The notes under the pieces: generated by a model
Databases searched by the model: none
Told to the model about the DNA's origin: nothing
The model's input: the letters and a program-made list of their open reading frames with translations, nothing else
Shown: piece after piece, positions 223-15,938 of the stretch
How positions within the stretch are numbered: the first letter of the stretch is position 1
How the letters are laid out: the number at the start of each line of letters is the position of its first letter
DNA from: a virus
Lineage: Duplodnaviria > Heunggongvirae > Uroviricota > Caudoviricetes
DNA length: 18,378 bases
Reading direction: 5' to 3' (one strand)
IMG/VR virus record: IMGVR_UViG_3300029190_000051
Position numbers and translations under genes: made by a program

Positions 223-570
223 TTACGAATTACTGCGGCGCTGTTGCTTTTCCGCATGTACGCGTTTCACAATCTTATAAATCCATTGCAGCGTCAGATT
301 ATATTTCTTCGCTAATTCGGCGTAGTTGCGCCCATCGCACTCGCTATAGATTTGGTAGTCACGCTCCGATGCTCGTCCGGAGATCCCCTTAGGGAAATAG
401 ATGCTTTGTCCGCCCCAGTTACGCATCATTCGGTCGGCAATGGCAAAACCCACATTTTCTGCCGATGAACTGTCGAGATTGATGCTTTCAATCAGAACTT
501 GCGATGCATGAAAAGCCAGGTCGTTAATGATCTCCGGTGTCCGGGCCATCTCTTTTGATTTTCGTATCAT
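223..570 (-). CDS. Mor/C-family transcriptional activator (phage Mu middle/late activator homologue)
   Basis: 115-aa ORF. The segment RNWGGQSIYFPKGISGRASERDYQIYSECDGRNYAELAKKYNLTLQWIYKIVKR aligns by eye with the recalled Mu Mor core (GGGQVYIPRG...IWNDFNGRN..EL...YG.T...VYK..RR), including the C-terminal helix-turn-helix. A GGAG ribosome-binding site lies 8 nt upstream of the ATG on the minus strand. Confidence 0.8.
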   Translation of the reverse strand: MIRKSKEMARTPEIINDLAFHASQVLIESINLDSSSAENVGFAIADRMMRNWGGQSIYFPKGISGRASERDYQIYSECDGRNYAELAKKYNLTLQWIYKIVKRVHAEKQQRRSNS

Positions 571-791
571 TTTTCATCTCCATATATCTTGCATCCTGAA
601 TAAGACCCGATGCGTGTAAAACCACGGATATACGCTAAGCAGTTGTCATTACTGCTACTCAATACATTCAATAAACAAATAAACAATCACCAAAAATATA
701 AACTTTTAATATTAATGAACGTCATAAATTCACGAAATAAATATATTGTTTGGATTATGTTTCTTATCAACAGGAGTATCATTTTACACTA

Positions 792-811
792 TACTGTATA
801 CATATACAGTA
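792..811. promoter_or_regulatory. LexA operator (SOS box), near-consensus
   Basis: TACTGTATACATATACAGTA matches the enterobacterial LexA consensus TACTGTATATATATACAGTA at 19 of 20 positions (CTGT-N8-ACAG with an AT-rich spacer), and is part of a perfect 10-bp inverted repeat ATACTGTATA/TATACAGTAT. It sits in the AT-rich divergent region between the Mor-like gene and the lysis/tail operon. Confidence 0.75.
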
Positions 812-1107
812 TTATTTTTACCTGTAGAGTAAAAAGATCGTTTCCCTCACAGTCGCTGACTTTCTTAAACAAACTTTAAAAATCAAATAACTATCGACTA
901 TTCCTACGATCCACCATCATCTTTCCCCTGCATAATGACGCGCTTATTAGCCTGGTCACCTTTTGCTCTTTAATTGCTGAGTCGATTTATTAGCGGGCTT
1001 GTTCATTTATAGAGAATCTATTTTTTAAACTTATTTATTAAAGCTTTTTTCATTCTTCACTGGCGGGTTCTGACGACACTAAACGCTCACTTATCAGGAG
1101 ATATCGT

Positions 1108-1395
1108 ATGAAAAAAGTCACTTTTCCCCGGCTTTCCGGCTGGCTAGTCGCTTCCGCCGCGCTGTTTGTCGTGATCGGCTGGACCTCTTCCGCACAGATC
1201 CCGGTCGTCATTTATAAACTAAGCCTGGTTTCGCTTTCCGCGGTGCTGGGATACTGGCTCGATCGCAGTTTGTTCCCCTGGGCACGGCCTGACTCTTTTA
1301 GCCCCTGGAAGGAACCTCGTTGCTGCGCGGCGGCAATGATTCGCCGCGCCATCATCGTTGCCGCCGTCTGTCTTTCCGTCGCCTTAGGGCTATAG
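1108..1395 (+). CDS. Putative holin (small membrane protein with about three hydrophobic segments), first gene of the lysis cassette
   Basis: 95 aa with hydrophobic stretches WLVASAALFVVIGW, VVIYKLSLVSLSAVLGYWL and AIIVAAVCLSVALGL. AGGAG lies 7 nt upstream of the ATG. The stop overlaps the endolysin start (TAGTGATG). Called by position and topology only. Confidence 0.45.
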   Translation: MKKVTFPRLSGWLVASAALFVVIGWTSSAQIPVVIYKLSLVSLSAVLGYWLDRSLFPWARPDSFSPWKEPRCCAAAMIRRAIIVAAVCLSVALGL

Positions 1396-1397
1396 TG

Positions 1398-2003
1398 ATG
1401 TGGCTGAAATATATCGCGTCTATGATTATTTTCGTTCTTTTCCCGCTTAACGCCTCTGAACCGCCGCGAGCCTCTCTGGCATGGCGAAACGAACTAATTC
1501 GTACAGCTCGAGAAGTCTGGGGGCTGAATGCTCCAGTGGCCGACTTTGCCGGGCAATTACACCAGGAGTCCGCCTGGCAGCCAATGGTACGTTCCCCCGT
1601 TGGCGCACAAGGTATGGCGCAATTTATGCCTGCTACAGCGACATGGATAAGCCAGTTGTATCCACAATTGCGTGAAAACAAACCGTATAACCCAACCTGG
1701 GCGATTCGCGCGCTGGTGCAATATGACCAGCATTTGTGGAAAAACATCTCTGCGAAAAATGATTGTCAGCGTATGGCGTTTACCCTAAGCGCCTATAACG
1801 GCGGTCAGGGGTGGGTTAACCGGGATAAAAAACTGGCTGCATCCAAAGGGTTAGATGCCACTAGCTGGTTTGGTCATGTTGAGCAAGTCAACGCCGGGCG
1901 CAGCGCCACGAACTGGCGAGAAAATCGTCGCTATCCAAAGATGATCCTCTATCAACATGCCGCCCGCTATTTACTCTGGGGACAGGCAAGCTGTCTTCAT
2001 TAA
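1398..2003 (+). CDS. Endolysin, soluble lytic transglycosylase (SLT/GH23-like) with N-terminal hydrophobic signal or SAR-like segment
   Basis: Contains the SLT-type motif region HQESAWQP...GAQGMAQFMPATA and a downstream AYNGG motif. The N-terminus MWLKYIASMIIFVLFPLNA is hydrophobic. I prefer the ATG at 1398 (GTG at 1395 also possible) over the track start at 1320, which would overlap the holin by about 75 nt. Confidence 0.75.
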   Translation: MWLKYIASMIIFVLFPLNASEPPRASLAWRNELIRTAREVWGLNAPVADFAGQLHQESAWQPMVRSPVGAQGMAQFMPATATWISQLYPQLRENKPYNPTWAIRALVQYDQHLWKNISAKNDCQRMAFTLSAYNGGQGWVNRDKKLAASKGLDATSWFGHVEQVNAGRSATNWRENRRYPKMILYQHAARYLLWGQASCLH

Positions 2004-2015
2004 TCAGAGGGGCCG

Positions 2016-2330
2016 ATGAAACTCAGTATCGATTTTTGGGAAGTGATCTCCCTTATGCTTTCCTTCGTTGGATTAATGTTTGCTGCCGGAAAACTGCTGT
2101 TAGCACAAATTGAAAAACGACTTAATGAGCGTTTTGAGTCTCTGGAAAATGCCCGCAGGGAATCAGAAACAAGTTGGTCGAAACTGGAAAGAGAATTTCT
2201 CGAATTTCGTGCCGAGCTTCCGCTGCATTATGTCCGCAGAGAAGATTATCTTCGTGGGCAAGCAGTATTAGAAGCGAAGCTGGATGCCTTATATAGCAAA
2301 ATCGAGCTGTTACAACGTGGCAGTTATTGA
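2016..2330 (+). CDS. Lysis accessory protein: N-terminal transmembrane helix plus coiled-coil (i-spanin-like or releasin-like)
   Basis: 104 aa with one N-terminal hydrophobic helix (VISLMLSFVGLMFAAGKLLL) followed by a charged helical region. It immediately follows the endolysin. I found no embedded lipoprotein (o-spanin) ORF in the other frames. Confidence 0.4.
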   Translation: MKLSIDFWEVISLMLSFVGLMFAAGKLLLAQIEKRLNERFESLENARRESETSWSKLEREFLEFRAELPLHYVRREDYLRGQAVLEAKLDALYSKIELLQRGSY

Positions 2331-2333
2331 AAA

Positions 2334-2367
2334 ATCCCCACCCTTATGTAAGGGTGGGGATTTTTTT
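2334..2367 (+). terminator. Rho-independent terminator after the lysis cassette
   Basis: ATCCCCACCCT / AGGGTGGGGAT forms an 11-bp GC-rich stem with a short loop, followed by a run of seven T. Confidence 0.7.
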
Positions 2368-2474
2368 AACCATTCAATTTTTTCTCTAAATCACATTAAA
2401 AGATTCTTCACCTTCGCTGCTTCAGAATACATTTCAACGATAACGAAGTGAGCGGTAATTAAGGTACAGCCTAT

Positions 2475-2930
2475 ATGGAAATTTTATCTGTAATGAATTC
2501 TGTTGTGACCAGATTACGTGAACACAACTCCGAAATGGATATATTTATTTCATCTAAGGATGCCCAGAAATATATTCCACAGACACAACGAGTTGCAGTG
2601 ATTATTAATTATAGCGGTTCTGTCTTTGCTACGCCCGAAAGCAGTAATGCCATCGTGCAACAGCAAATACTCCGCTTAACCGCCACCGTTATTGTTGGCA
2701 AAAATTGTGATGCATTAAACGCACTTGATCACATACGCAGCGCATTGGGTGGCCTTCCGCTTCCTGATTGTGATCGTCTGCTTTGGCTTGAAAAAGAAAT
2801 TAATACGGGTGAGAGCGGCGGTTTCTGCCGCTACATCCTGGAAATGGCGACCAGCTCGCTGTTTATCGCTGAACAGGAAAGCACGGATCTTCCCCTGCTT
2901 ACGGAAGTTAACTACGAGGAAACTGAATGA
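2475..2930 (+). CDS. Phage tail protein immediately upstream of the sheath gene (Mu gp37-like position; tail terminator/completion-like)
   Basis: 151-aa ORF, first gene after the terminator, overlapping the next ORF by 4 bp. Assigned by gene order and size relative to Mu-like tail modules, not by a recognised motif. Confidence 0.35.
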   Translation: MEILSVMNSVVTRLREHNSEMDIFISSKDAQKYIPQTQRVAVIINYSGSVFATPESSNAIVQQQILRLTATVIVGKNCDALNALDHIRSALGGLPLPDCDRLLWLEKEINTGESGGFCRYILEMATSSLFIAEQESTDLPLLTEVNYEETE

Positions 2931-3124
2931 AATACATCTACAACGGCCCAGCAAGCGGCGTCACCCTTGCCGATGGACAAGAAATCTTATTGTGGCCGAA
3001 CAGTGAAATTGATCTGCCAGAAGACAACGAGTGGGTCATGACCATGATTGCCCGCAATCATCTGACTCCTGTCATCACTCAGGAAGAACAAAATAACGTA
3101 GAGGAAATTGTACATGGCAGCTAA
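2927..3124 (+). CDS. Small phage tail-associated protein (Mu gp38-like position)
   Basis: 65-aa ORF translationally coupled to its neighbours, directly upstream of the sheath gene. Assigned by position only. Confidence 0.3.
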   Translation: MKYIYNGPASGVTLADGQEILLWPNSEIDLPEDNEWVMTMIARNHLTPVITQEEQNNVEEIVHGS

Positions 3125-4538
3125 TTATCTGCACGGTGTAGAAACTATTGAAATTGAAACCGGCCCGCGTCCGGTTAAAGCGGTAAAATCCGCCGTCATC
3201 GCTTTAATCGGTACATCCCCCTGCGGTCCGGTAAATAAACCAACATTATGCCTTTCTGAAAGCGATGCTGCGCAGTTTGGCTCGACTCAGGCTAACTTTA
3301 CGATCCCACAGGCACTGAAGGCAATTTATGACCACGGTGCCGGTACGGTGGTGGTGATTAACGTGCTGGATCCGGCAAAACATGGCTCCAACATCAGCAA
3401 TGAGAGTATCACTTTTGATGCTAACAACCAGGCGAAGCTCGCTCACCGCAATGTGCGTAACGTGGTACTAAAGCCCTCTTCATCAAATTCATCAACCTTT
3501 AACACCGCAGCATTTAGCGTAGATGAACAAACAGGCATAATTACCCGTAAAGGAGCCGACATTCCTCCTGGTGCGAAAGTTTGTGCCTATTATTCCTGGT
3601 GCGACCCTACAAAGGTCACCGCAGCCGATATTATCGGTACCGTAAATACCGCAGGCGACCGCACGGGGATGAAACTCCTTCAGGACACCTATAACCTGTA
3701 CGGTTTCTACGCCAAAATCCTGCTTGCTCCTGTGTTTTGTACGCAAAAATCGGTGACTACTGAGCTGATTGCACAAGCGGAAAAACTCGGTGCGATTACC
3801 TACATTGATGCCCCGATTGGGACAACATTCCAGCAGGTATTGGCTGGACGCGGTTCGCAAGGGGCTATCAACTTCAATACCAGCTCTGATCGTGCGCGTT
3901 TATGTTACCCACATGTCAAAGTTTACGATGGCATCACTAACCAGGAAATTCTTGAGCCTCTCTCTTCGCGTGCTGCCGGGCTGCGTGCCAAAGTAGACCT
4001 CGAAAAAGGTTTCTGGTGGAGCAACTCAAACCAGGAAATTCAGGGTATTACCGGTATTGAACGTTCGCTTTCCGCAATGATTGATGATCCACAAAGCGAA
4101 GTGAATCAGCTCAACGAAAACGGCATTACCACTATTTTCAATAGTTACGGCTCTGGTCTGCGCTTGTGGGGTAACCGCACAGCGGCATGGCCTACCGTGA
4201 CCCATATGCGTAACTTTGAAAACGTCCGCCGGACAGGCGATGTAATCAATGAGTCAATCCGTTATTTCAGTCAGCAGTATATTGATATGCCGATTAATCA
4301 GGCACTTATTGACGCGCTGACCGAATCGGTAAATACCTGGGGCCGAAAACTGATTGCCGACGGCGCACTGCTTGGCTTTGAGTGCTGGTACGATCCGGCA
4401 CGAAATTCACCGGCTGAACTCAGCGCCGGGCATTTATTGCTGAGCTATAAATTCACCCCGCCACCGCCGCTGGAACGTCTGACGTTTGAAACTGAAATTA
4501 CTTCTGAATATTTAGTCTCTCTGGAGAGCAATAGCTAA
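3108..4538 (+). CDS. Contractile tail sheath protein
   Basis: 476 aa. Size, position ahead of the tube gene, and conserved C-terminal sheath-like segments (ITTIFNSYGSGLRLWGNRTAAWP) fit a Mu/P2-type sheath. The true start may be the ATG at 3114, which has better spacing from the GAGGA at 3099-3103. Confidence 0.85.
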   Translation: MYMAANYLHGVETIEIETGPRPVKAVKSAVIALIGTSPCGPVNKPTLCLSESDAAQFGSTQANFTIPQALKAIYDHGAGTVVVINVLDPAKHGSNISNESITFDANNQAKLAHRNVRNVVLKPSSSNSSTFNTAAFSVDEQTGIITRKGADIPPGAKVCAYYSWCDPTKVTAADIIGTVNTAGDRTGMKLLQDTYNLYGFYAKILLAPVFCTQKSVTTELIAQAEKLGAITYIDAPIGTTFQQVLAGRGSQGAINFNTSSDRARLCYPHVKVYDGITNQEILEPLSSRAAGLRAKVDLEKGFWWSNSNQEIQGITGIERSLSAMIDDPQSEVNQLNENGITTIFNSYGSGLRLWGNRTAAWPTVTHMRNFENVRRTGDVINESIRYFSQQYIDMPINQALIDALTESVNTWGRKLIADGALLGFECWYDPARNSPAELSAGHLLLSYKFTPPPPLERLTFETEITSEYLVSLESNS

Positions 4539-5062
4539 TGGCTGGAAAAATTCAAATTAACCGTATTACCAACGCCAATATTTATCTCGATGGTAATAAC
4601 CTTTTAGGTCGTGCAACAGAAATTAAATTGCCGGATGTAAGTTTAATTATGCAGGAGCATAAAGCACTGGGCATGGTGGGTAAAATCGAACTCCCGGCAG
4701 GTTTCGATAAACTGGAGGGCGAAATTAAATGGAACTCCTTCTATCAGGACGTAATGCGTAAAACGGCAAACCCGTGGCAGGCGGTTGCATTACAGTGCCG
4801 CTCCAGTATTGATTGCTATAACTCCCAGGGGAAAGCGAATCAATTAGCGCTAGTGACACATTTAACCGTGATGTTTAAAAAGAATCCACTGGGCACATTT
4901 AAACAGAATGAAAACCCGGAATTCAGCAGCGCCTTTGGTTGCACTTATATTAAACAAGTAGTTGATGGTGAAACGCTGCTTGAACTTGATTATATGGCCA
5001 ATATTTTCCGGGTTAATGGTGTGGATCAATTAAGTACCTATCGCAATAACATCGGTGGCTAA
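4538..5062 (+). CDS. Tail tube protein
   Basis: 174 aa, starting at an ATG that overlaps the sheath stop (TAATGG). Size and position are typical of a contractile-tail tube subunit. Confidence 0.75.
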   Translation: MAGKIQINRITNANIYLDGNNLLGRATEIKLPDVSLIMQEHKALGMVGKIELPAGFDKLEGEIKWNSFYQDVMRKTANPWQAVALQCRSSIDCYNSQGKANQLALVTHLTVMFKKNPLGTFKQNENPEFSSAFGCTYIKQVVDGETLLELDYMANIFRVNGVDQLSTYRNNIGG

Positions 5063-5112
5063 GTTATTCGGGGCTACGGCCCCGAACTTTGCAAAATAAA
5101 TAAGGACACAAA

Positions 5113-5430
5113 ATGAAAGAACATTATATCTTGCAGTTTCCATTTACGTCGGCAGCAGGAAATAATATCGACACGCTGCAATTACGTCGCCTGAAAGTAA
5201 AAGATATGCGCAACGCCCGCCGGATCAGCGAAAAGCCAGAAGAGTGGGATGAACCGCTGATGGCGGCGATGACCGGACTGGTGCCAGAAGATTTAGCCGA
5301 AATGGATTTGCTGGATTACCAGGCATTGCAGAAACGATTTCAATCCATGCTTACCGTGGTTACAGAATCCTCCCCTGCTATGGCAGGCAATGGCGCTACT
5401 GGCGAGATGGTTTCGCTTTCCGCCCAGTGA
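5113..5430 (+). CDS. Tail assembly chaperone (P2 gpE / Mu gp41-like position)
   Basis: 105-aa acidic protein located between the tube and tape-measure genes, the canonical chaperone position. An overlapping +1 frame stays open to 5518. Confidence 0.55.
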   Translation: MKEHYILQFPFTSAAGNNIDTLQLRRLKVKDMRNARRISEKPEEWDEPLMAAMTGLVPEDLAEMDLLDYQALQKRFQSMLTVVTESSPAMAGNGATGEMVSLSAQ

Positions 5431-5504
5431 GATAGACGCCCTTACCGTCGATGACTTTAGCAACTGGCTGGATGAAGCCAGCGCCCAAATAAAAATCGAA
5501 TATG

Positions 5505-5529
5505 ACTCGCAGACCTGATGTCTGCGAGT
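5505..5529. other. Perfect 10-bp stem-loop in the chaperone to tape-measure spacer
   Basis: ACTCGCAGAC ctgat GTCTGCGAGT. It is not followed by a U-tract. The stop codon of the +1-frame extension (TGA 5516-5518) lies in the loop. Confidence 0.45.
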
Positions 5530-5619: not shown

Positions 5620-7995
5620 TTGGCCAACGATATTATTACCCAGCTTCAGGCGCGTAATGAGACGTTGACGCAGGCAATAGCCCGTTACGGCTCACTCAAC
5701 GCCAGAACATTGTTAACTCTCTCTACTCAGCAGGCGACAGTTATCAAACTAACGCAGCAGCTTGCCGATTCCGCTCTCCGCCTGGAGGAAAATAGCCGCA
5801 GCCGCGCTAATCTGATGGAGAAAACCCAAACATTTGCCGGGCAATTTAGCAAAGTATTCAATGTTGAAGCCCCCGACTGGAAGTTGCCGTATGAGTTTCA
5901 GGACAACATGGTCAATATGGCGACCAAAGGTGGGATGAATGCTACAACCCGCGAGACGCTCAGCCTTAATCTGCGCGACTGGAGCATGGATTTTAACCAG
6001 CAGCAGACCACCTTACAGAACGCAGCCCAAACGCTGATCGAAGGCAATTTGTCGTCGATGCAGGATCTCAACCGTTATATGCCGGAGATCGCCAAAGCTG
6101 CCACCGCCACGCGCGAAAGTGCTGAAACGTGGGCGAATGCCGCGCTCGCGACTCATGATCGACTGAATATTGCCCCGGAAAATTTCCACGCCGCGCAAAA
6201 CATGATGTACGGCATTAGCAAAAGCGGTGGGCCTGCCATTGCTGAACAAACGCAGTGGATAGAGAAATTTGCAGGTAAAACCGGCGCTCAGGGTCTGGAA
6301 GGTATGGCTGAACTGACTGCCGCCATGCAGATCGCAATGAAAAATGGGGCCAGCGCCAGTGCGGCGGCGGAGAATTTTGACCACTTTCTGCAAACCACCT
6401 TTTCGAAAAAAACCGATAGCTGGTTCGCCAGCCAGGGCGTCGATCTGCAAGGCTCTCTGCTTGAACATCAGCAAAACGGTATGGGTGTTAGCGAAGCCAT
6501 GACTCATATCGTACAAATGCAGCTTGAGAAGATGAACCCGGCGATCCTCGACACCTTCAAACGTACTATGCAGATTGAAGATTTATCTGCTCGCAGCAAT
6601 GCGCTGCAATCGATGGTGTCGCAATTTAATCTGGGCGAAATGTTCGGCGATGTGCAAACGGTGGAATTCCTGGCACCTATGCTGGCGAATATGGAGGAAT
6701 ATCGCCAGTTAAAAGCCTCTGCCATGCAAGCCACCAGCAAGAATCTGATTAACGCTGACTTTTCTGCGCAAATGGCCTCGCCCATTGAACAGACTAAAGC
6801 GTTACAGCTGGCATTAAATGATTTATGGCTCAGCATTGGTTTGCAGCTTATGCCGGCGATTGGCGAGCTGGCACAAAGCCTTACGACGGTTATTCGCCAG
6901 TTCAGCGCCTGGCTACGCGAACATCCGGCGCTGGTGCAAAACATTGCGAAAATCGTCGGGGCGGTTTGGCTGTTTAACGGCGCGCTGAATGTTTTAAAGC
7001 TGGGCGCGAACCTCATCACCTCGCCGTTTATTCGTCTGGTCGATATCTTCCTGAAAGTCAAGGCAAGTCTGGCGCTCACAGGCGGGGCAAGTAAGATGCT
7101 ATCAGCGGTTAAGTCATTGGGTGGCGGCGCAAAATGGCTAATGCAACTGCTTGGTCGTGGCCTGATTGGCGCACTGAAACAGGTAGGTCAGACCGTCTTC
7201 TGGTTGGGTAGGGTTTTATTGATGAATCCCATTGGTCTGGTCATCACTGCGATTGCGGGCGCTGCTTATCTGATTTGTCGCAACTGGGAGCCTATCTCCA
7301 GGTTCTTTTCGACCATCTGGCAACGTATCACCACGGCCTTTGACGGCGGCATTGCAGGAATTTGTCGGTTGATTCTCGACTGGTCACCGCTGGAGTTGTT
7401 CTATAGCGCCTTTTCCAGTGTGATGAATTGGTTTGGTGTCGAGATGCCTGCAAGTTTTAGCGAGTTCGGCAGCAATCTTCTGGGCAGTCTGGTTGACGGC
7501 ATAATGAATGCCTTCCCCGCTCTGAAAGGCATTATTGATCAGGTAAAAAACGCCATCCCAGACTGGCTAAAAACCACGATGGGTATTAGTACAGAAGGAT
7601 CGGCTACAGCTATTACAAGCACGACTAATACCGCATCCGTCTCCCCCGCGACCGTTGTTCCAGGCGTTGCCGGTGCGATTTTAACACCGCCGGTGGGCAA
7701 ACAACTCGCGCCATCCGGCAAAACGGCTACGCCGTCATCGGCGCCAGCGGCAAAAAATACAGCCGCCAAACCCGTATCTGCCTCTTTACCTGGTAAATCC
7801 GTAACCAAACCGGCGACGCTACCCTCCCGTTCCTCAGGAAAAGTCCAGGTAAATTTTTCGCCACAAATTACCGTGCAGGGTAACGGACAAAACACCACTA
7901 AAGAGATTCAGAACGTGTTGACGATGAGTAAACGCGAACTGGAAAGAATGATTAACGATGTAATGGCGCAGCAGCAGCGCCGGGGGTATGCCTGA
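5620..7995 (+). CDS. Tail tape measure protein
   Basis: 791 aa, the largest ORF, downstream of the chaperone. It has hydrophobic segments in the C-terminal third and a Ser/Thr/Pro/Ala-rich low-complexity tail. It starts at a TTG (5620) after AAAGAGAAA; the first in-frame ATG is about 65 codons in. Confidence 0.85.
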   Translation: MANDIITQLQARNETLTQAIARYGSLNARTLLTLSTQQATVIKLTQQLADSALRLEENSRSRANLMEKTQTFAGQFSKVFNVEAPDWKLPYEFQDNMVNMATKGGMNATTRETLSLNLRDWSMDFNQQQTTLQNAAQTLIEGNLSSMQDLNRYMPEIAKAATATRESAETWANAALATHDRLNIAPENFHAAQNMMYGISKSGGPAIAEQTQWIEKFAGKTGAQGLEGMAELTAAMQIAMKNGASASAAAENFDHFLQTTFSKKTDSWFASQGVDLQGSLLEHQQNGMGVSEAMTHIVQMQLEKMNPAILDTFKRTMQIEDLSARSNALQSMVSQFNLGEMFGDVQTVEFLAPMLANMEEYRQLKASAMQATSKNLINADFSAQMASPIEQTKALQLALNDLWLSIGLQLMPAIGELAQSLTTVIRQFSAWLREHPALVQNIAKIVGAVWLFNGALNVLKLGANLITSPFIRLVDIFLKVKASLALTGGASKMLSAVKSLGGGAKWLMQLLGRGLIGALKQVGQTVFWLGRVLLMNPIGLVITAIAGAAYLICRNWEPISRFFSTIWQRITTAFDGGIAGICRLILDWSPLELFYSAFSSVMNWFGVEMPASFSEFGSNLLGSLVDGIMNAFPALKGIIDQVKNAIPDWLKTTMGISTEGSATAITSTTNTASVSPATVVPGVAGAILTPPVGKQLAPSGKTATPSSAPAAKNTAAKPVSASLPGKSVTKPATLPSRSSGKVQVNFSPQITVQGNGQNTTKEIQNVLTMSKRELERMINDVMAQQQRRGYA

Positions 7996-8948: not shown

Positions 8949-9157
8949 TGCGATACCTTGAACATATCACCACCGACGGCGAACGCTGGGATAATCTGGC
9001 ATGGCATTACTACGGTGATGCGCTGGCTTATGAACGCATAATCGCCGCCAATCCACATGTAGCCATTTACCCGGTACTGCCTTCCGGTATTCAGCTCATT
9101 ATTCCGGTCATTTCCGTCAATAAAACCTTATCGGAGATCCCACCATGGCTGAGATAA
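8945..9157 (+). CDS. Tail protein X (P2 gpX-like, LysM-like fold)
   Basis: 70 aa with the pattern G..WD.LAWHYYGDA...ERIIAANPHV....LPSGIQLIIP, which fits the recalled gpX signature (YYG...ANP...LP.G..L). Confidence 0.7.
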   Translation: MMRYLEHITTDGERWDNLAWHYYGDALAYERIIAANPHVAIYPVLPSGIQLIIPVISVNKTLSEIPPWLR

Positions 9158-10185
9158 GCGTAACTGGTGGCGTCTTTGCCACACTCACGCCCATTTTTAC
9201 CCTCTGGTATGGGCATAAAGATATCACTTATGACATCACACCCTATGTCACCAGCATCAGTTACCACGACAGCATCAAAAACGAGTCGGATACCATCGCA
9301 ATTACACTGGATGACACAGATGGACGCTGGATAAAAGAGTGGTATCCCGGCAAAGGCGATACGCTGGCGCTGCATATGGGTTATCAGGGAGAGAAGCTGC
9401 TCGATTGTGGTCAGTATATTATTGATAAAATTGATATTTCAGCGCCACCTTCTACGGTAAATATTGATGGCATCGCCACTTCCGTCAATCAGGCGCTGCG
9501 CACCCGTAACAGCCAGGGTTTTGAAGAAACGACGCTTTCGGCTATCGCCAGCCGTATCGCACAAACTCACGGCCTAAAGCTGGTGGGCAAAATCGAGCCT
9601 CTGACAATTGACCGGGTGACACAGTACGGCGAAACCGATGTTGGATTTCTCAAACGTCTGGCCAGTGAATATGGTTATGCCGTAAAAGTGACGACGAAAG
9701 AGCTGATTTTTTCACATTTACCCACGCTGCGCTGCCTGGCACCTGTGAAAAAGATCGACCGCAAAGACGTTTCGCATTTCACCTTCAAAGATACCATTAA
9801 CCGTATCTACAAAAACGCCACCGTACAGCATCAAAATAGTAAGAAAAAAGAACTGGTTATCTACACTCACAACAGCCAGCAAAAACCGTCTGCCCGTGGA
9901 GTCGGCACCAGTGCCGACACGCTAAAACTGAACAGTCGGGCGACGGACGTTGGCGCAGCACAGGCAAAAGCCAACGCTGCACTCGACAGCCACAACGAAT
10001 ATCAGCAAACCGGAACGCTCACAATGATGGGCTGCCCGGAACTGACGGCGGGCAATAAAATCGAGCTAACCGATTTTGGCGTGCTTTCCGGTCAATGGCT
10101 AATTGATAAATCGACTCACAGTTTTGTGCGCAGCGGCTATACCACTGAAATCGACGTGTCGCGCGGGCCAGCGACCAGCCAGTAA
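9145..10185 (+). CDS. Baseplate hub protein (P2 gpD-like / Mu gp44-like)
   Basis: 346 aa, in the conserved U-X-D position after the tape measure. Size and order support the call. Confidence 0.7.
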   Translation: MAEISVTGGVFATLTPIFTLWYGHKDITYDITPYVTSISYHDSIKNESDTIAITLDDTDGRWIKEWYPGKGDTLALHMGYQGEKLLDCGQYIIDKIDISAPPSTVNIDGIATSVNQALRTRNSQGFEETTLSAIASRIAQTHGLKLVGKIEPLTIDRVTQYGETDVGFLKRLASEYGYAVKVTTKELIFSHLPTLRCLAPVKKIDRKDVSHFTFKDTINRIYKNATVQHQNSKKKELVIYTHNSQQKPSARGVGTSADTLKLNSRATDVGAAQAKANAALDSHNEYQQTGTLTMMGCPELTAGNKIELTDFGVLSGQWLIDKSTHSFVRSGYTTEIDVSRGPATSQ

Positions 10186-10194: not shown

Positions 10195-10896
10195 ATGAAA
10201 GGAGTAACCCGTCAAACGGGGATTATCAGCGATATTGACGAAACCAGCGTTCGGGTGCGGGTCACGCTCCCGGAGTGTGACAATCTGAAGAGCAACTGGC
10301 TTGCGGTACTTCAACGCAATTCCCAGGACAATAAAGACTACTGGCTACCGGATATGGGCGAGCAAGTGGAAGTTCTGCTGGACAATAACGGTGAAGATGG
10401 CGTGGTGCTGGGCGCAGTTTATTCTACGGTTGACACCGCGCCTGTAGCCTCGCGCGACAAACGTTACGTCCAGTTTTCTGATGGCGCAGCGTTTGAATAT
10501 GACCGCAGCACGCACCAGCTGACGATCAACGGCGGTATCGAGAAAATCGTGATTGAGGTTATCAACGGTACCTGCCTGACATCGCCCAACGTTGAGATTA
10601 AAGCCCAACAGGTCACCGTGACTTCCGATACCGTCGATGTTAAAGCGACCGATGTCAGCATCGACGCCACTAAGGTCGAGGTTAAAGCAGCAGCAGTGAC
10701 GGTAGATGCGCCCATGAGCACCTTTACTGGCAACGTCACGGTAATGAAAAAACTCACCTGGCTTGGCGGGATGGCAGGAAGTGGAGGCATCGGTAACGCA
10801 GCCACGATAACCGGCAATGTCAACGTGATCGGCAACGTTCAGGCCAGCGGCGCATTGCAGGACAGCGGTGGCAACTCCAACCACCATTCACACTGA
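10195..10896 (+). CDS. Baseplate central spike (P2 gpV-like / gp5-VgrG-like) with a His-rich C-terminal tip
   Basis: 233 aa. The N-terminal region is OB-fold-like, followed by repetitive beta-strand-like V/T/D-rich segments (VTVTSDTVDVKATDVSIDATKVEVKAAAVTVDA). The C-terminus is ...GGNSNHHSH, consistent with an apex metal-binding His motif. Confidence 0.75.
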   Translation: MKGVTRQTGIISDIDETSVRVRVTLPECDNLKSNWLAVLQRNSQDNKDYWLPDMGEQVEVLLDNNGEDGVVLGAVYSTVDTAPVASRDKRYVQFSDGAAFEYDRSTHQLTINGGIEKIVIEVINGTCLTSPNVEIKAQQVTVTSDTVDVKATDVSIDATKVEVKAAAVTVDAPMSTFTGNVTVMKKLTWLGGMAGSGGIGNAATITGNVNVIGNVQASGALQDSGGNSNHHSH

Positions 10897-10902
10897 CGTT
10901 TA

Positions 10903-10994: not shown

Positions 10995-11354
10995 ATGAAC
11001 ACAAAAACACGCCCCTCAACGCTGCACTGGCAACCGGCCTTGCTGCGGCCTGAAGAATACGTCTGCGGACTGGATGATATTCACCAGGCAATACACATCA
11101 TTCTGCGTACACCGCGCGGCAGTGATCCCCACAGACCGCTGTTTGGCAGCAACTTGTGGCACTACATCGATTACCCCATCGAGCGGGCTATCCCGCATGT
11201 GGTACGGGAGTCGGTGGAAGCCATCCGCCAGTGGGAACCGCGCTGTCGGTTGCTGAAGGTGACACCAGTAATCGACGGCGAACATCTGACGTTACGTGTG
11301 CAATGGCGCGCCGCTGACGGCGTTATCAACTCAACGGAGGTGTTATGGCGATAG
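10995..11354 (+). CDS. Baseplate wedge protein (P2 gpW-like / T4 gp25-like)
   Basis: 119 aa with IHIILRTPRGSDPHRPLFGSNLWHYID...IRQWEPRCRL, which fits the recalled gpW/gp25 pattern (ILRTP.GSR...YGS.L...WEPR). Confidence 0.8.
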   Translation: MNTKTRPSTLHWQPALLRPEEYVCGLDDIHQAIHIILRTPRGSDPHRPLFGSNLWHYIDYPIERAIPHVVRESVEAIRQWEPRCRLLKVTPVIDGEHLTLRVQWRAADGVINSTEVLWR

Positions 11355-12460
11355 CCGAACCCAATTTTATTGACCGCGATCCTGCGCAAATTACCAGTGA
11401 GATGATTGCGCAATACGAAGATGCCAGTGGTAAAAAACTCTATCCGGCACAGGCTGAGCGGTTGCTCATCGACCTGTTTGCCTATCGTGAAAACCTTGTA
11501 CGCATCGCCATTCAGGAAGCGGCGAAACAAAACCTGGTCGCGTATTCCCGCGCGCCAATGCTGGATTATTTAGGAGAGCTGGTGGGCGTTCACCGTTTGC
11601 CTGCGCAGCCAGCAAAAACGACGTTGCAGTTTTCGGTCGTCAGTGCGTATACCAGCAATATCCTGATTCCCCAGGGGACGCGGGCCAGTGCCTCTGATAG
11701 CGTGATGTTCGCCACCGATGAAGATGTTCTGCTTCCGGCCTGGAGTTTGCATATCGCCGTTCCTGCCACCAGCCTCGCAGCAGGTGAACAGGGTAACGGC
11801 TGGCAGCCTGCACAAATTAGCGCTCTGGTCGACAGGATTGGTCATTATGACATCAACGTAACCAACCTGACTGCGTCAACGGGCGGCTGCGGTGAAGAGA
11901 GCGATGACGCATTGCGCCAGCGTATCCAACTGGCACCAGAAAGCTTTAGTAATGCGGGCAGCTATGGCGCATACCGCTTTCATACGCTTTCTGTTAGCCA
12001 GTCGATTATTGACGTTGCAGTACTGGGGCCGGACGAGGGATTGCCAGAAGGCTGCGTGGAGATCTACCCGCTAACCCTGAATGGACTGCCAGGAATAGAA
12101 CTGCTCGCGCAAATCGAACAGGAGGTTAGCAAGGAGAAAAAACGTCCGCTGACCGACAAAGTGAGTGCGAAATGCGCTCTTCGAGTGCCGTATGAGATCC
12201 GTGCGCAGCTAACGCTGTTTACCACCGCCGATCAGGAGACAACGCTGGCTGCGGCGCGTAAAGCGATTAGCCTCTGGACGCAACAGCGGCAGAAACATCT
12301 GGGGCAAGACATTGTGCCAAACCAGATAATCAAAGTGTTACAGGTCGATGGCGTCTATGACGTTGCGCTGAACTTGCCTACAAAACGTATTTTGCAGGCG
12401 CATGAATGGGCGGAATGCACTGCAATAGACGTCACGATCGCCGGAGTTAGCGATGGATAA
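11345..12460 (+). CDS. Baseplate wedge protein (P2 gpJ-like)
   Basis: 371 aa, overlapping the W-like gene by 10 bp and the I-like gene by 8 bp. Position and size fit the W-J-I baseplate triplet. Confidence 0.75.
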   Translation: MAIAEPNFIDRDPAQITSEMIAQYEDASGKKLYPAQAERLLIDLFAYRENLVRIAIQEAAKQNLVAYSRAPMLDYLGELVGVHRLPAQPAKTTLQFSVVSAYTSNILIPQGTRASASDSVMFATDEDVLLPAWSLHIAVPATSLAAGEQGNGWQPAQISALVDRIGHYDINVTNLTASTGGCGEESDDALRQRIQLAPESFSNAGSYGAYRFHTLSVSQSIIDVAVLGPDEGLPEGCVEIYPLTLNGLPGIELLAQIEQEVSKEKKRPLTDKVSAKCALRVPYEIRAQLTLFTTADQETTLAAARKAISLWTQQRQKHLGQDIVPNQIIKVLQVDGVYDVALNLPTKRILQAHEWAECTAIDVTIAGVSDG

Positions 12461-13169
12461 ATTGCTACCACCGCCGCCGCTTGCCAGCGATGAGCGTTTT
12501 TCGATTCTGGCAAATATCGCCGCCGAGCGTTTTGCCCAACTCGATCTGACGGCGTTGATGGTTTATCTGGTCGACCTGGTTGATGCTTCGGCATTACCAG
12601 CCCTTGCAGAACAATTTCACGTTCAGGGGTTGGAAGGTTGGTTATTTACCACCGATGAGCGGGAGAAACGCGAGTTAATTAAACAAGCCATTGAACTGCA
12701 TAAATATAAAGGAACAATTTGGGCGGTGCGGCGGGTGCTGGAAATACTCTCCTTACCCGGAACTATTTCAGAATGGTTTGAATATGGGGGAAGGGCTTAC
12801 TTTTTTAAGGTTGATATTACACTAGAGGAAAAAGGATTAAATGAAGATGAATTCAATGCACTTATCACATTAATTCATGAATATAAAAATGTCCGTTCAA
12901 AGCTGGAAAGCATTGTTATTTGGCTTATTAATCGAAGCCCAATACCAGTTATTGGCAGTGCCATGCAAGGAGGGGAAGTCATTACAGTATTGCCTCCTGT
13001 TGCAGAAAGCCTCAGCCAGTCATCTGGAATATTTTTAGCGACAGGTTATTGTGTGGAGGAATATATTCAACTACTACCTTATCAACCCGATCGACTAACA
13101 CAATCCCAACCGATGAAGGTCGGCACAGGATACTGGAGCACCGAAATTATGTCTGTATATCCGGAGTAA
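12453..13169 (+). CDS. Baseplate protein (P2 gpI-like) with a C-terminal extension
   Basis: 238 aa. [13 protein letters not shown]...[17 protein letters not shown]...EW.EY...FKVDITLEE...GEVITVLP parallels the recalled P2 gpI sequence. About 55 residues follow the gpI-like end and finish with a similar ...IMSVYPE. Confidence 0.7.
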
Positions 13170-13171
13170 TA

Positions 13172-14782
13172 ATGGCAAGTGAATTTTTTACAATATTAAC
13201 TGCTGCAGGCAAAGCCAAAATTGCCTCAGCACTGGCCGAGCAAAAACAGATCCGTCTGCAAACTATGGTAGTTGGCGACGGTAATGGTAAATATATCGAA
13301 CCGACAGAAAGTCAGACCAAAGTAGTCCATGAGGTCTGGCGTGGTCAGCTCAATACATTAAAAATTGCGCCAGATAATCCGGCCTGGGTTATCGCAGAAG
13401 CGATTATTCCCGAACAAGTCGGAGGCTGGTATGTACGCGAAGTTGGGTTACTGGATACCGACGGCACGATGGTCGCTATTGGTAAATTCCCGGAAACCTA
13501 TAAGCCACGATTACCTGCGGGGGCCAGTAAGCAAATCGTTATACGCGCGGTCATGGAAGTCACCAATGCAGATGCGGTGACGCTTTTGATCGACCCTTCA
13601 GTCGTTGTGGCAACCAGGGAATATGTCGATGACGCGTTGAAAACACATCAGCAATCACGAAATCATCCTGATGCGACGCTGACACAAAAAGGTTTTACGC
13701 AGCTGAGTAATGCGACTAATAGCGATGATGAAACCAAAGCGGCCACGCCAAAAGCGGTAAAAACGGCATATGACCTGGCAAATAGCAAAGCTGCCACCAG
13801 TCATAATCATGCCTGGAATCAGATTACTGGTATCCCTGATGGTACACTGACGCAGAAAGGAGTCGTTAAGCTTAACAATACAACAAATAGCACCAGTACG
13901 ACGGAAGCTGCAACACCAAGTGCGGTTAAGGCAGCGATGGATAAGGCTATTGCTGCGGCACCGTCCAGCCATACCCATGCCTGGGGGCAAATAACAGGTA
14001 TCCCCGACGGTACGCTGACGCAAAAAGGGGTCGTGAAACTTAATAATGCGACCAACAGCACCAGTACGACGGAAGCTGCAACGCCGAACGCTGTTAAGGC
14101 AGCGATGGATAAGGCTATTGCTGCGGAAAGCTGTCCTGTTGGGATGCCTATTCCCTGGCCATCTGATTCTGTACCTTCAGGCTACGCTCTGATGACAGGT
14201 CAGACATTTAATAAAACCTCCTATCCCAAACTGGCAATTGCATATCCATCTGGTGTTATTCCTGATATGCGCGGATGGATAATTAAAGGAAAACCATCCA
14301 GTGGGCGCGCTATATTATCTACTGAACTGGATGGAGTTAAATCACATAACCATACGGGCAGTATTTCGAGTACGGACTTAGGGACGAAATCTGTATCATC
14401 AATAGATCTAGGAACAAAGAACACTCAGTCATTTAATCATGGGATAAAAACAACAAATACAGCAGGCGCGCATAGCCATGATAGTGGTTCTGGCGAAAGT
14501 AGTGAGGGGGGAAAACCTCGGTATGGTACTCGTGATAACACAACAAATAATTTTGGTTCTGGTGAATCAGATCATGACAATTACAAATTTAACACATCCA
14601 CGGATGGAGAGCATGCACATTCAGTTAATGTTGGCTCACACTCTCACTCTGTTATTTTAGGGTCACATAATCATTCAATTGCCCTTGGTTCCCATAATCA
14701 CTCCCTAACCATTAATAATACCGGCAACACCGAAAACACCGTCAAAAATATCGCATTCAACTATATTGTGAGGCTAGCATGA
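13172..14782 (+). CDS. Tail fibre protein (P2 gpH-like N-terminal anchor, tandem fibre repeats, His-motif C-terminal receptor-binding region)
   Basis: Start at the ATG 13172 (GGAG 7 nt upstream), not the track start at 13049. The N-terminus ([28 protein letters not shown]...[34 protein letters not shown]...[34 protein letters not shown]) closely parallels the recalled P2 gpH N-terminus. Three fibre-type repeats follow, and the C-terminus carries [27 protein letters not shown]. Confidence 0.85.
13664..14127 (+). repeat. In-frame tandem repeats inside the tail fibre gene (about 3 copies of about 165 bp / 55 aa)
   Basis: Copies at about 13664-13798 (degenerate), 13799-13966 and 13967-14127. The last two share long identical stretches (AGCACCAGTACGACGGAAGCTGCAAC and GTTAAGGCAGCGATGGATAAGGCTATTGCTGCGG). 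Protein unit: [48 protein letters not shown]. Confidence 0.75.
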
Positions 14783-15486
14783 ATACTTTTACCTTTTCCG
14801 ATGAAGCTCAAATACTAACTGTATATAATTTTTCACAAGACTCCCAAGAATATATCGGTGAGTCTGATGCATACATTGCACCTAATACAGGCTTGCCAAA
14901 TTATTGCACATTAATTTCACCTCCCGAAAAGGTTCCTGGTTTTACTCCAGTGTGGGAGAATGAAACATGGAGACTTATTGAAGATCATCGAGGCCAAACT
15001 GTTTATAACAAAGTTGATGGTAGCCAGCTTATTATTCAAGAATTGGGCCAATTACCTGAAAATGTAACAGTCATTTCCCCGACAGGTTCTTTTGAACGTT
15101 GGGATGGTGAAAAATGGCAACCATCTATAACCGATGCTAAAGAGGCGAAATACTCTGCAATCAAAAATCAACGCGATGCCATCACAACCGATTACATCAT
15201 CATCAACAACCATCACTTCCACAGTGATACAAATAGCCGTATCCAACAGCTTTCACTCACAAAAATGGGAGCGGAGAAAAAAATTCCGCCAGGTTTAATG
15301 TGGAAAACTAAAAATAATGGTCTGATTGAGTTAACCAACGAAATCGCTGCCCAGTTTGAATCGGTCACCATGGATCACGATATGCGCTTGTTCGCAAACG
15401 CCCAGCGTCATATCGCGGCGGTGGAAGCACTGGACGATATTCAGGCGGTGCTCGACTACGATTATTCAACAGGCTGGCAACCATGA
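14779..15486 (+). CDS. Tail fibre assembly protein (lambda Tfa-like chaperone)
   Basis: 235 aa. The N-terminal half ([102 protein letters not shown]) parallels the recalled lambda Tfa N-terminus almost motif for motif. The start overlaps the fibre stop (ATGA). Confidence 0.8.
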
Positions 15487-15938
15487 GTAAAACCACTGTC
15501 TGGCTCGCTTGTTATAAGGGCCGAACAGAGCACCGTGGTATTGCCCGACTGGCTGACTGGCTTACCCGTAAAATCACACGCGGTCATTATTCCCACTGTG
15601 AATTAGCCGTTAAGCATGGTGAAAAGAGATACCTTTGTTACTCTGCATCACTGCGCGATCGCGGTGTACGCGGAAAGATAATGCCATTGCCAGCGGATAA
15701 GTGGGATATGCTGCCGCTCCAGGCTAGCCTTCAGGATGTGGAAACTTTTTTCCGTAAACATGATGGCAAAAAATATGACTGGCGCGGAGCATTAGGAATT
15801 ATTACCGGTAATAAAGAACAGCGCGATCGCCTGTTTTGCAGTGAATTTTGTGCTGAATTTCTGCAACTGAAGGAAAGCTGGCGCTATTCTCCAAACCACT
15901 TGTACGCTTTAGTCAGCAGCTGGCAATACCAGCAATAA
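15483..15938 (+). CDS. Hypothetical cargo protein, last gene of the tail operon; possible permuted papain-like (His then Cys) hydrolase
   Basis: 151 aa, translationally coupled to tfa (ATGA). It has His-containing GHYSHCELAV upstream of a Cys-containing LFCSEFCAEF segment, which resembles the C-[ST]-E-F catalytic-Cys motif of YiiX/YaeF-type permuted papain-fold proteins. The functional call is weak. Confidence 0.4.
   Translation: MSKTTVWLACYKGRTEHRGIARLADWLTRKITRGHYSHCELAVKHGEKRYLCYSASLRDRGVRGKIMPLPADKWDMLPLQASLQDVETFFRKHDGKKYDWRGALGIITGNKEQRDRLFCSEFCAEFLQLKESWRYSPNHLYALVSSWQYQQ

What the first reader, a model, noticed from the sequence alone, without database searches (positions are those of the whole stretch)
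223..15938. Headless Mu-like contractile-tail cluster with its own lysis cassette and activator: candidate R-type tailocin
Within about 15.7 kb every recognisable gene is an activator, a lysis gene or a tail gene (terminator-like, sheath, tube, chaperone, tape measure, gpU/X/D-like, spike, W/J/I-like wedge, fibre, Tfa). The block starts 55 bp after lysC and ends at a convergent operon, leaving no room for head, packaging, integration or immunity genes. That architecture matches domesticated phage-tail bacteriocins (R-pyocin-like particles) rather than a prophage. The gene order is Mu-type (sheath-tube-tape measure-baseplate-fibre) rather than the P2 order seen in the best-known R-pyocins, which would make it a less common lineage of tailocin.
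Basis: partly seen in the sequence, partly recalled or inferred. Interest (0 to 1): 0.75.

Follow-up and report, generated by a model that had tools for sequence, protein, structure and literature searches.

The report
Headless phage-tail weapon cluster in E. coli
This stretch of an E. coli chromosome holds an intact set of genes for a contractile phage tail, cell lysis and an activator, but no head genes; it most likely makes a tail-shaped bacteriocin related to carotovoricin of plant pathogens, though no experiment has tested this.

Summary
Window 223-15938 carries a Mor activator, a holin, an SLT endolysin and a full contractile-tail gene set. No head, packaging, transposition, integration or repressor gene lies in it or within 14 kb on either side. 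The block is gene-for-gene collinear with the transposable Burkholderia phage BcepMu. It lacks exactly the BcepMu early region (gp2-20), the Rz/Rz1 spanins and the head module (gp26-36). It sits between lysC and yjbD in about 200 of 5426 complete E. coli genomes. It occupies the same lysC site in Salmonella (STM4198-STM4219), Superficieibacter and Phytobacter. Every gene compared between E. coli and Salmonella is under purifying selection (dN/dS 0.04-0.24). Synonymous divergence matches that of the flanking core genes. A near-consensus LexA box found only in this clade lies between mor and the lysis genes. Fibre and Tfa alleles are mosaic between strains. The closest characterised relative is carotovoricin of Pectobacterium (sheath 75% identical), which appears to have lost its head genes independently. 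Best reading: a domesticated, SOS-wired R-type tailocin, a new member of a known kind. Particle production and killing are untested, and no spanin was found.

The parts
1..168 (+). 3' end of lysC (left flank; core gene)
   Evidence: Aligns with K-12 lysC up to base 169; annotated as lysC in identical genomes
181..210 (+). GC-rich hairpin after lysC, probably the lysC terminator
   Evidence: Read directly from the sequence; function inferred
223..570 (-). Mor-family late transcription activator (BcepMu gp1 homologue)
   Evidence: Pfam Mor E=7e-38; phrog_532; 49% identical to BcepMu gp1
783..811 (+). LexA box TACTGTATACATATACAGTA (792-811) overlapping a sigma-70-like promoter TTTACA-16-TACAGT (783-810) that reads toward the lysis genes
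   Evidence: 19 of 20 matches to the consensus; none expected by chance. Promoter scan. Conserved in E. coli, Salmonella, Superficieibacter and Phytobacter inside a divergent spacer. Absent from Ctv, Lelliottia and complete prophages
1016..1043 (+). A/T-rich block (TTTTTTAAAsTTATTTATTAAAG) conserved in all six aligned loci, starting 83-84 bp upstream of the holin start codon; candidate Mor-dependent late promoter
   Evidence: Alignment A1; single copy in the window and found only in the lysC clade; the role is inferred
1108..1395 (+). Holin (2/3-TMD family; BcepMu gp21 homologue)
   Evidence: Pfam Holin_2-3 E=1e-26; phrog_1528 holin
1398..2003 (+). Lytic transglycosylase endolysin with a hydrophobic N-terminus (BcepMu gp22 homologue)
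   Evidence: Pfam SLT E=9e-15; phrog_669 endolysin; 53% identical to gp22
2016..2330 (+). 104-aa membrane-anchored protein (BcepMu gp25 homologue); possible releasin-type lysis accessory, not a spanin
   Evidence: 46% identical to gp25; phrog_462. One N-terminal TMD followed by basic residues (sequence). No BLASTP similarity to Mu gp25
2331..2367 (+). Intrinsic-terminator-like hairpin with a T run after the lysis cassette
   Evidence: Sequence; found on the minus strand by the scan; present in 5 of 6 aligned loci
2368..2474 (+). Conserved promoter-like block (…TTTTTTCTCTAAA…ATTAAAAGA…AATAC…) upstream of the tail genes
   Evidence: Alignment A2; the role is inferred
2475..2930 (+). Tail terminator (Gp37 family; homologue of Salmonella PDB entry 2GJV)
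   Evidence: Pfam Gp37 E=4e-32; PDB 2GJV E=3.5e-54. 2GJV is treated as a hexameric tail terminator in bioRxiv 10.1101/2024.10.16.618446
2927..3124 (+). Small conserved tail protein (BcepMu gp38 homologue)
   Evidence: phrog_895 E=3.5e-35
3114..4538 (+). Contractile tail sheath
   Evidence: Pfam Phage_sheath_1 and 1C; 71% identical to BcepMu gp39; R2-pyocin sheath PA0622 E=4e-45
4538..5062 (+). Tail tube
   Evidence: Pfam Phage_tube E=4e-56; 69% identical to BcepMu gp40
5113..5430 (+). Tail assembly chaperone (gpE-like)
   Evidence: Pfam Phage_TAC_7 E=2e-19
5378..5518 (+). Overlapping +1-frame ORF encoding a GpE'-like peptide (…WFRFPPSEIDALTVDDFSNWLDEA…)
   Evidence: Frame translations; a matching peptide was found next to the chaperone gene in all 84 related loci that were scored, in the same +1 frame in nearly all of them
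5620..7995 (+). Tape measure protein
   Evidence: Pfam PhageMin_Tail; aligns with BcepMu gp44
7995..8948 (+). gpU-like tail protein with a coiled-coil C-terminal half
   Evidence: Pfam Phage_P2_GpU E=6e-34; phrog_788
8948..9157 (+). Tail protein X
   Evidence: Pfam Phage_tail_X E=2e-23
9145..10185 (+). Baseplate hub (gpD-like)
   Evidence: Pfam Phage_GPD; 44% identical to BcepMu gp47
10195..10896 (+). Baseplate spike (gpV-like)
   Evidence: Pfam Phage_base_V
10995..11354 (+). Baseplate wedge gpW/gp25-like
   Evidence: Pfam GPW_gp25; 61% identical to BcepMu gp49
11345..12460 (+). Baseplate wedge gpJ-like
   Evidence: Pfam Baseplate_J E=8e-62
12453..13169 (+). Baseplate wedge gpI-like
   Evidence: Pfam Tail_P2_I E=3e-33
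13172..14782 (+). Tail fibre; N-terminal part shared between strains, mosaic C-terminal receptor-binding part
   Evidence: Pfam Phage_tail_fib, Phage_fiber_2 and Collar; allele comparison
14779..15486 (+). Tail fibre assembly protein (Tfa), which co-varies with the fibre tip
   Evidence: Pfam Caudo_TAP and DUF4376; phrog_1807 and phrog_105
15483..15938 (+). 151-aa YiiX-like permuted papain-fold (NlpC/P60 superfamily) enzyme with invariant His38 and Cys119; role unknown

Best explanation
The block is a domesticated remnant of a BcepMu-like transposable myovirus. It has kept only what is needed to build, regulate and release a contractile tail, so it is a candidate R-type tailocin.

Proposed mechanism:
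1. In unstressed cells LexA occupies the box at 792-811 and blocks the overlapping promoter in the mor/holin spacer.
2. DNA damage cleaves LexA. Mor, transcribed divergently, then activates the conserved A/T-rich late promoters ahead of the lysis cassette (1016-1043) and the tail genes (2368-2474).
3. The baseplate (gpD hub, V spike, W/J/I wedges) nucleates tube polymerisation around the tape measure, helped by its chaperones. The sheath assembles around the tube. The Gp37 hexamer and gp38 cap the tail. Fibres are attached with the help of Tfa.
4. The holin, the SLT endolysin and the gp25-like membrane protein lyse the producer cell.
5. Free particles bind related strains through the strain-specific fibre tip, contract and puncture the envelope.

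What is shown: gene content, collinearity with BcepMu, absence of head and mobility genes, conserved locus, purifying selection, conserved LexA box and fibre mosaicism. What is inferred: steps 1-5 as events, by analogy with Mu Mor/C, R-pyocins and carotovoricin.
For: All tail, lysis and activator calls are supported. The block is collinear with BcepMu gp1, 21, 22, 25 and 37-51, and lacks exactly gp2-20, gp23/24 and gp26-36. The deletion keeps the tail terminator and removes the head-tail adaptor.

There are no head or mobility genes in 14-kb flanks. The K-12 empty site defines the insertion as 170-18253.

The structural region is present in 191-200 of 5426 complete E. coli genomes and is always chromosomal. 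All genes are intact in four sampled lineages. The same lysC-adjacent headless cluster occurs in Salmonella, Superficieibacter and Phytobacter.

For the 17 cluster genes that could be scored between E. coli and Salmonella, dN/dS is 0.04-0.24 and dS is 0.5-2.6. Flanking core genes have dS 0.7-1.7.

The LexA box differs from the consensus at one position. It is conserved in all lysC-clade loci and absent from the other relatives.

Fibre tips and Tfa N-termini are swapped between strains. The Salmonella fibre gene STM4200 is close to serovar-specific (PMC6201931).

The sheath is 75-76% identical to that of the Pectobacterium carotovoricin cluster. That cluster was identified by its tolC-like neighbour (PMC13195805).
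Against: No particle, induction or killing data exist for this locus in any paper found. No spanin gene could be found, although BcepMu, carotovoricin and most relatives have Rz/Rz1; release may therefore be inefficient or depend on other factors. The direction in which the LexA-controlled promoter acts, and how mor is transcribed, cannot be settled from sequence. Some genomes carry disrupted copies: frameshifts in NCTC9699, an IS26 island in FDAARGOS_497 and ISKox3 in OW967966. The cluster is absent from about 96% of complete E. coli genomes, so it is dispensable.
Confidence: 0.75

Rival explanations
1. It is a functionless, slowly decaying remnant of a BcepMu-like prophage that happens to have lost its head and early genes.
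For: The cluster is absent from most E. coli. Some copies are disrupted by frameshifts or insertion sequences. The spanin genes have been lost. No function has been published.
Against: Twenty-one ORFs remain intact at synonymous divergence above 1 between E. coli and Salmonella, with dN/dS 0.04-0.24. The regulatory blocks and the LexA box are conserved inside an otherwise divergent spacer. The deletion boundaries keep every tail gene. The fibres are actively exchanged.
Confidence: 0.1
2. The tail has another use. It could supply tails to tail-less capsids made by other elements in the cell, or act as an extracellular injection device against non-bacterial targets.
For: The evidence here does not distinguish the target of the particle. 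A conserved enzyme of unknown role (orf151) is co-transcribed with the tail genes.
Against: The head-tail adaptor (gp36 homologue) is missing. There is no AAA+ ATPase, Afp16-type cap or toxin cargo gene typical of Afp/PVC systems. The fibres are of the enterobacterial P2/Mu type with variable tips, as in bacteriocin-type tails. The closest characterised relative is a bacteriocin.
Confidence: 0.07
3. It is one arm of a complete prophage whose head and integration genes lie just outside the window.
For: None found.
Against: Annotated flanks of 14 kb on both sides in an identical genome are housekeeping genes. The same holds in four other E. coli lineages and in Salmonella. The K-12 empty site brackets the insertion.
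Confidence: 0.01

Closest known systems
Carotovoricin (Ctv) of Pectobacterium, a characterised R-type tailocin
   Same: Ctv is also a headless BcepMu-type cluster with the order holin, SLT, gp25-like, gp37, gp38, sheath, tube, chaperone, TMP, U, X, D, V, W, J, I. The sheath is 75-76% and the tube 76% identical. The +1-frame GpE' ORF is shared.
   Different: Ctv lies next to a tolC-like gene, not lysC (PMC13195805). It keeps Rz and gp26 homologues. No Mor homologue or LexA box was found upstream of it. It forms a separate clade in the NJ tree, next to complete enterobacterial prophages, which suggests an independent head loss. From my own knowledge, Ctv Er has an invertible fibre region with an invertase; none is present here.
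Burkholderia phage BcepMu (Bcepmuvirus), a complete transposable myovirus
   Same: The two are collinear for gp1, 21, 22, 25 and 37-51. The sheath is 71%, the tube 69% and gpW 61% identical.
   Different: The window has no transposase, MuB, repressor, spanins, terminase, portal, capsid or adaptor. The fibre and Tfa are replaced by an enterobacterial type. LexA takes the place of phage-repressor control.
Salmonella enterica STM4198-STM4219 island (uncharacterised orthologue)
   Same: It has the same lysC-adjacent position, gene order, LexA box and promoter blocks. Nucleotide identity is 77.5% over the shared part.
   Different: The Salmonella copy carries a gtrABC O-antigen glucosylation operon between V and W. 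Its right flank has different genes, an acetyltransferase instead of RlaP and slipin.
R2 pyocin of Pseudomonas aeruginosa
   Same: Both are headless contractile tails with a lysis cassette and DNA-damage induction through an activator. The sheath matches PA0622 at E=4e-45.
   Different: From my own knowledge, R2 pyocin has the P2 gene order (baseplate and fibre before sheath and tube) and a PrtR/PrtN circuit rather than LexA/Mor. The two are distant in sequence.
The E. coli ST131 'tailocin' of Tantoso et al. 2022 and kosakonicin
   Same: Both are enterobacterial phage-tail loci proposed as tailocins.
   Different: Both are P2-like. The ST131 element is an intact prophage with head genes (PMC9205054). 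Kosakonicin derives from P2 (PMC6629978). Neither is this locus.

Membership tests
R-type tailocin | Complete contractile-tail gene set (sheath, tube, TMP with chaperone, hub, spike, wedges, terminator, fibre, Tfa) | tested here: met
R-type tailocin | No capsid, portal, terminase, replication or integration genes in the locus or its flanks | tested here: met
R-type tailocin | Own lysis cassette for release | tested here: inconclusive
   Holin, SLT endolysin and a gp25-like protein are present. No spanin or lipobox ORF was found.
R-type tailocin | Stress (SOS) inducible expression | tested here: inconclusive
   A conserved near-consensus LexA box overlaps a promoter, and a Mor activator is present. 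Induction itself cannot be tested here.
R-type tailocin | Fixed chromosomal locus and purifying selection (domestication rather than decay) | tested here: met
R-type tailocin | Headless sheathed particles seen by EM | not testable with these tools
   Needs induction and microscopy
R-type tailocin | Fibre-dependent killing of related strains | not testable with these tools
   Needs killing assays. Fibre mosaicism is only circumstantial.
Carotovoricin (Ctv) lineage | Structural genes orthologous to Ctv and in the same clade | tested here: not met
   The genes are homologous (sheath 75%), but Ctv forms a separate clade in the NJ tree (no bootstrap support values).
Carotovoricin (Ctv) lineage | Locus between tolC_2 and ybiB | tested here: not met
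   This cluster lies between lysC and yjbD. Ctv lies next to a tolC-like OEP gene (PMC13195805).
BcepMu-like transposable phage | Transposase and MuB module, and a head module | tested here: not met
   No tblastn hit to gp8, gp9 or gp27-36
Afp/PVC-type extracellular injection system | AAA+ ATPase, Afp16-type cap, toxin cargo genes | tested here: not met
   None appeared in the Pfam scans of all ORFs

The most novel reading that the evidence does not exclude
The lysC cluster may be an ancient Enterobacteriaceae tailocin that was already in place before Escherichia and Salmonella diverged. It would then have been kept in Salmonella and lost from most E. coli. On this reading it was rewired from phage-repressor control to direct LexA plus Mor control, and it releases without spanins. 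The headless relatives in Lelliottia, Brenneria and Lonsdalea that still carry transposase and MuB would then be intermediate 'transposable tailocins', showing that head loss came before loss of mobility.
Probability: 0.3. Interest if true: 0.65.

Novelty: new member of a known kind. Interest (0 to 1): 0.5.

Why it matters
I found no experimental work on native R-type tailocins of E. coli or Salmonella in the papers searched. If this cluster is active, it is a strain-specific killing device in about 3.5% of complete E. coli genomes, with a counterpart at the same site in Salmonella. It would bear on gut competition and on engineering narrow-spectrum antibacterials from a host-native scaffold. 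It also gives a clean comparative series (complete phage; headless with transposase; headless and fixed) for studying how phage tails are domesticated. Finally, it offers a natural test of lysis without spanins.

Tried and rejected
- Full prophage: rejected by the flanks and by the K-12 empty site.
- Identity with the published ST131 'tailocin': rejected, because that element is a P2-like intact prophage.
- Identity with kosakonicin: rejected, because it is P2-derived.
- The gp25-like protein as an i-spanin: rejected on topology (basic residues follow the TMD) and because no o-spanin or lipobox ORF exists.
- The gp25-like protein as a Mu gp25 releasin homologue: no BLASTP similarity and no Pfam hit. 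Only position and topology are shared (PMC9239132).
- A second copy of the holin-upstream 20-mer ahead of the tail genes: none found. Only a looser ATTAAA(A)G similarity is present.
- PADLOC on orf151, RlaP, slipin and Mor: no hits.
- Rfam and tRNA scans of the window: nothing found, so there is no tRNA-type attachment site.
- RlaP and slipin as part of the tail island: rejected. They occur in 1632 genomes against about 200 for the tails. In tail-less genomes a zeta-toxin-family gene takes the place of the tail cluster.
- Literature searches for lysC, STM42xx locus tags or Mor together with tailocin found no characterisation of this locus.


Full report
**Observation**

The window is E. coli chromosome. 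It is 100% identical over all 18378 bases to many complete genomes, such as MS6198 and WP5-S18-ESBL-08.
- Mor activator, 223-570, minus strand
- 2/3-TMD holin, 1108-1395
- SLT-domain endolysin, 1398-2003
- Gp37-family protein, 2475-2930
- sheath, 3114-4538
- tube, 4538-5062
- gpE-type chaperone, 5113-5430
- tape measure, 5620-7995
- gpU-like protein, 7995-8948
- tail protein X, 8948-9157
- gpD-like hub, 9145-10185
- gpV spike, 10195-10896
- gpW, 10995-11354
- gpJ, 11345-12460
- gpI, 12453-13169
- collar-type fibre, 13172-14782
- Tfa, 14779-15486

The block begins 54 nt after the lysC stop codon. It ends 13 nt before a convergent pair of genes, an RlaP-type nucleotidyltransferase and a slipin.

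**Flanks and insertion site**

In an identical genome, 14 kb of annotated sequence on each side holds only housekeeping genes. K-12 has lysC and yjbD 252 bp apart. Its homology to the window stops at base 169 and resumes at 18254.

The RlaP-slipin pair is a separate accessory module. It occurs in 1632 of 5426 complete genomes, whereas the tail genes occur in about 200. In tail-less genomes a zeta-toxin-family gene sits where the tail cluster would be. The tail island proper is therefore about 170-15940. No tRNA or Rfam element is present.

**Origin**

The sheath is 71% identical to gp39 of the transposable Burkholderia phage BcepMu, and 74% identical to those of enterobacterial BcepMu-like phages. 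A tblastn of BcepMu proteins against the window shows strict collinearity: gp1 (Mor), gp21 (holin), gp22 (SLT), gp25, then gp37 to gp51.

Three parts of BcepMu are missing:
- the early, transposition and immunity region (gp2-20)
- the Rz/Rz1 spanins (gp23/24)
- gp26 and the whole head module, up to and including the head-tail adaptor (gp27-36)

The first retained structural gene, the Gp37 homologue, matches PDB 2GJV from Salmonella at E=3.5e-54. That entry is a hexameric ring treated in the literature as a tail terminator. The deletion therefore removes everything head-related and keeps the cap a free tail needs.

More precisely it is BcepMu-type, built from P2-family tail proteins.

**Distribution and selection**

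The structural region is present in 191-200 of 5426 complete E. coli genomes at 94.7-100% identity, and it is always chromosomal. Five sampled lineages carry it at the same site. Four have every gene intact and one has frameshifts. Occasional copies are broken by an IS26 resistance island or by ISKox3.

A scan of one genome per species found the same headless, lysC-adjacent cluster in Superficieibacter (two species) and Phytobacter. Salmonella carries it as STM4198-STM4219.

Seventeen cluster genes could be scored between E. coli and Salmonella. They show dN/dS of 0.04-0.24, with dS of 0.5-2.6. Six flanking core genes have dS of 0.7-1.7. A 15-kb cluster of 21 ORFs does not stay intact at that divergence without selection. 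The similar synonymous divergence is compatible with presence at lysC before the two genera split, although transfer between similarly distant lineages is not excluded.

**Regulation**

The 537-bp mor/holin spacer is poorly conserved between genera except for two islands.

The first island is CATTTTACAC-N-ATACTGTAT-N-CA-N-ATACAGT. It contains a LexA box (792-811) that differs from the consensus at one position, with none expected by chance. The box overlaps a TTTACA-16-TACAGT promoter that reads toward the lysis genes. An A/T-rich LexA box of this kind occurs upstream of the sheath gene in all eight lysC-clade loci. It occurs in none of the carotovoricin, Lelliottia or complete-prophage loci. 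Direct wiring to the host SOS repressor, in place of the lost phage repressor, is therefore specific to this clade.

The second island is an A/T-rich block that is conserved across the aligned loci and starts 83-84 bp upstream of the holin start codon. After the gp25-like gene comes a terminator-like hairpin (2331-2367). This is followed by another conserved block sharing an ATTAAA(A)G core, just ahead of gp37.

I read the two A/T-rich blocks as Mor-dependent late promoters, by analogy with Mu; this is inference. I could not determine whether LexA also controls mor, or which strand the LexA-controlled promoter mainly serves.

**Lysis**

The cassette comprises a holin, an SLT endolysin with a strongly hydrophobic N-terminus, and a 104-aa homologue of BcepMu gp25.

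The gp25-like protein has one N-terminal transmembrane segment followed by basic residues. That suggests an N-out, C-in membrane-tethered cytoplasmic protein rather than an i-spanin. It occupies the same position as the Mu gp25 'releasin' (PMC9239132), but it shows no BLASTP similarity to it.

No Rz/Rz1 homologue and no lipobox ORF exist in 1000-2600. BcepMu, carotovoricin and most relatives do have Rz. The missing spanin is the main anatomical weakness of the tailocin reading.

**Other features**

A GpE'-like peptide (…WFRFPPSEIDAL…WLDEA…) is encoded in the +1 frame overlapping the end of the chaperone gene. A matching peptide lies next to the chaperone gene in all 84 related loci that were scored, in the +1 frame in nearly all of them.

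Fibres are mosaic. Four E. coli alleles (526-608 aa) share the N-terminal part at 62-100% identity. Some then drop to 0-16% identity in the C-terminal part, and the N-terminus of Tfa co-varies with them. The Salmonella fibre gene STM4200 is specific enough to serve as a Typhimurium qPCR marker.

**Comparison with known systems**

The Pectobacterium and Samsonia loci with 75-76% sheath identity are headless. In P. carotovorum the locus sits next to a tolC-like gene, which is the published position of carotovoricin (PMC13195805).

Carotovoricin keeps Rz and gp26 homologues and has no detected Mor or LexA box. In a concatenated NJ tree without support values, it forms a clade next to complete enterobacterial prophages. 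The lysC clade groups instead with a Lelliottia element. This suggests at least two independent head losses within the same phage lineage.

Elements in Lelliottia, Brenneria and Lonsdalea lack head genes between the lysis cassette and gp37 but still carry transposase, and most also MuB. Chromobacterium has yet another headless form.

The published E. coli ST131 'tailocin' and kosakonicin are P2-like and are different loci. I found no paper that characterises the lysC cluster. A 2026 Salmonella T6SS survey mentions 'tailocin/phage loci' only to discard them. One microarray study reports indole induction of the Salmonella sheath gene STM4213.

**Verdict**

This is most likely a domesticated, SOS-wired R-type tailocin of the BcepMu/carotovoricin kind. 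It is a new member of a known kind rather than a new kind. Particle formation, induction and killing remain untested, and the missing spanin needs explaining.

Noticed in passing
window 15952-17876 (minus strand): A convergent RlaP-type nucleotidyltransferase and slipin (SPFH) pair. It is present in 1632 of 5426 complete E. coli genomes, far more than carry the tail cluster. In tail-less genomes a zeta-toxin-family gene lies between lysC and this pair, so lysC-yjbD is a hotspot with at least three configurations. No PADLOC hit.
   Followed up: partly
window 18333-18377 (plus strand): A 14-codon ORF (MNIISSARKRIPVH) with a Shine-Dalgarno-like AAGGC just upstream. It lies in the stretch upstream of yjbD that aligns with K-12 at 90% identity, and the same ORF is present in K-12. 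It could be a leader peptide or a small protein.
   Followed up: no
L001 23361-26196 (Salmonella Infantis): The Salmonella orthologue carries a gtrABC O-antigen glucosylation operon inside the baseplate genes, between V and W, and an acetyltransferase after the last cluster gene. O-antigen modification genes inside a tail cluster could serve self-protection; this is speculation.
   Followed up: no
L007 (Lelliottia), L011 and L015 (Brenneria), L043 and L048 (Lonsdalea): These BcepMu-like elements keep the transposase (most also MuB), the lysis genes and the full tail, and the Lelliottia and Brenneria ones also Mor. They have no head genes between gp25/gp26 and gp37. They may be intermediate, still mobile headless elements. 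Head genes further away on the contig were not excluded.
   Followed up: partly
window 5378-5518, and the scored loci among L001-L085: The conserved GpE'-like extension of the tail chaperone lies in the +1 (or -2) frame relative to the chaperone gene in nearly all of the 84 loci where it was found. From my own knowledge, P2 E/E' uses the -1 frame. No slippery site was identified.
   Followed up: partly
L091 8997-10421 (FDAARGOS_497); H8 (OW967966): In one strain an IS26-flanked resistance island (tet(A), OXA-1, aac(6')-Ib-cr, aac(3)-IIe) has replaced the left part of the cluster and truncated the tape measure gene. In another strain an ISKox3 element interrupts the cluster.
   Followed up: no
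L073 8802-9801 (Chromobacterium sp. CV08): Another headless arrangement, in which Mor lies directly next to gp37 with no lysis cassette between them and the baseplate genes are rearranged.
   Followed up: no
window 15483-15938: The YiiX-like permuted papain-fold gene is annotated 'enoyl-CoA hydratase' in several phage and Pasteurellaceae records. The predicted fold does not support that annotation.
   Followed up: yes
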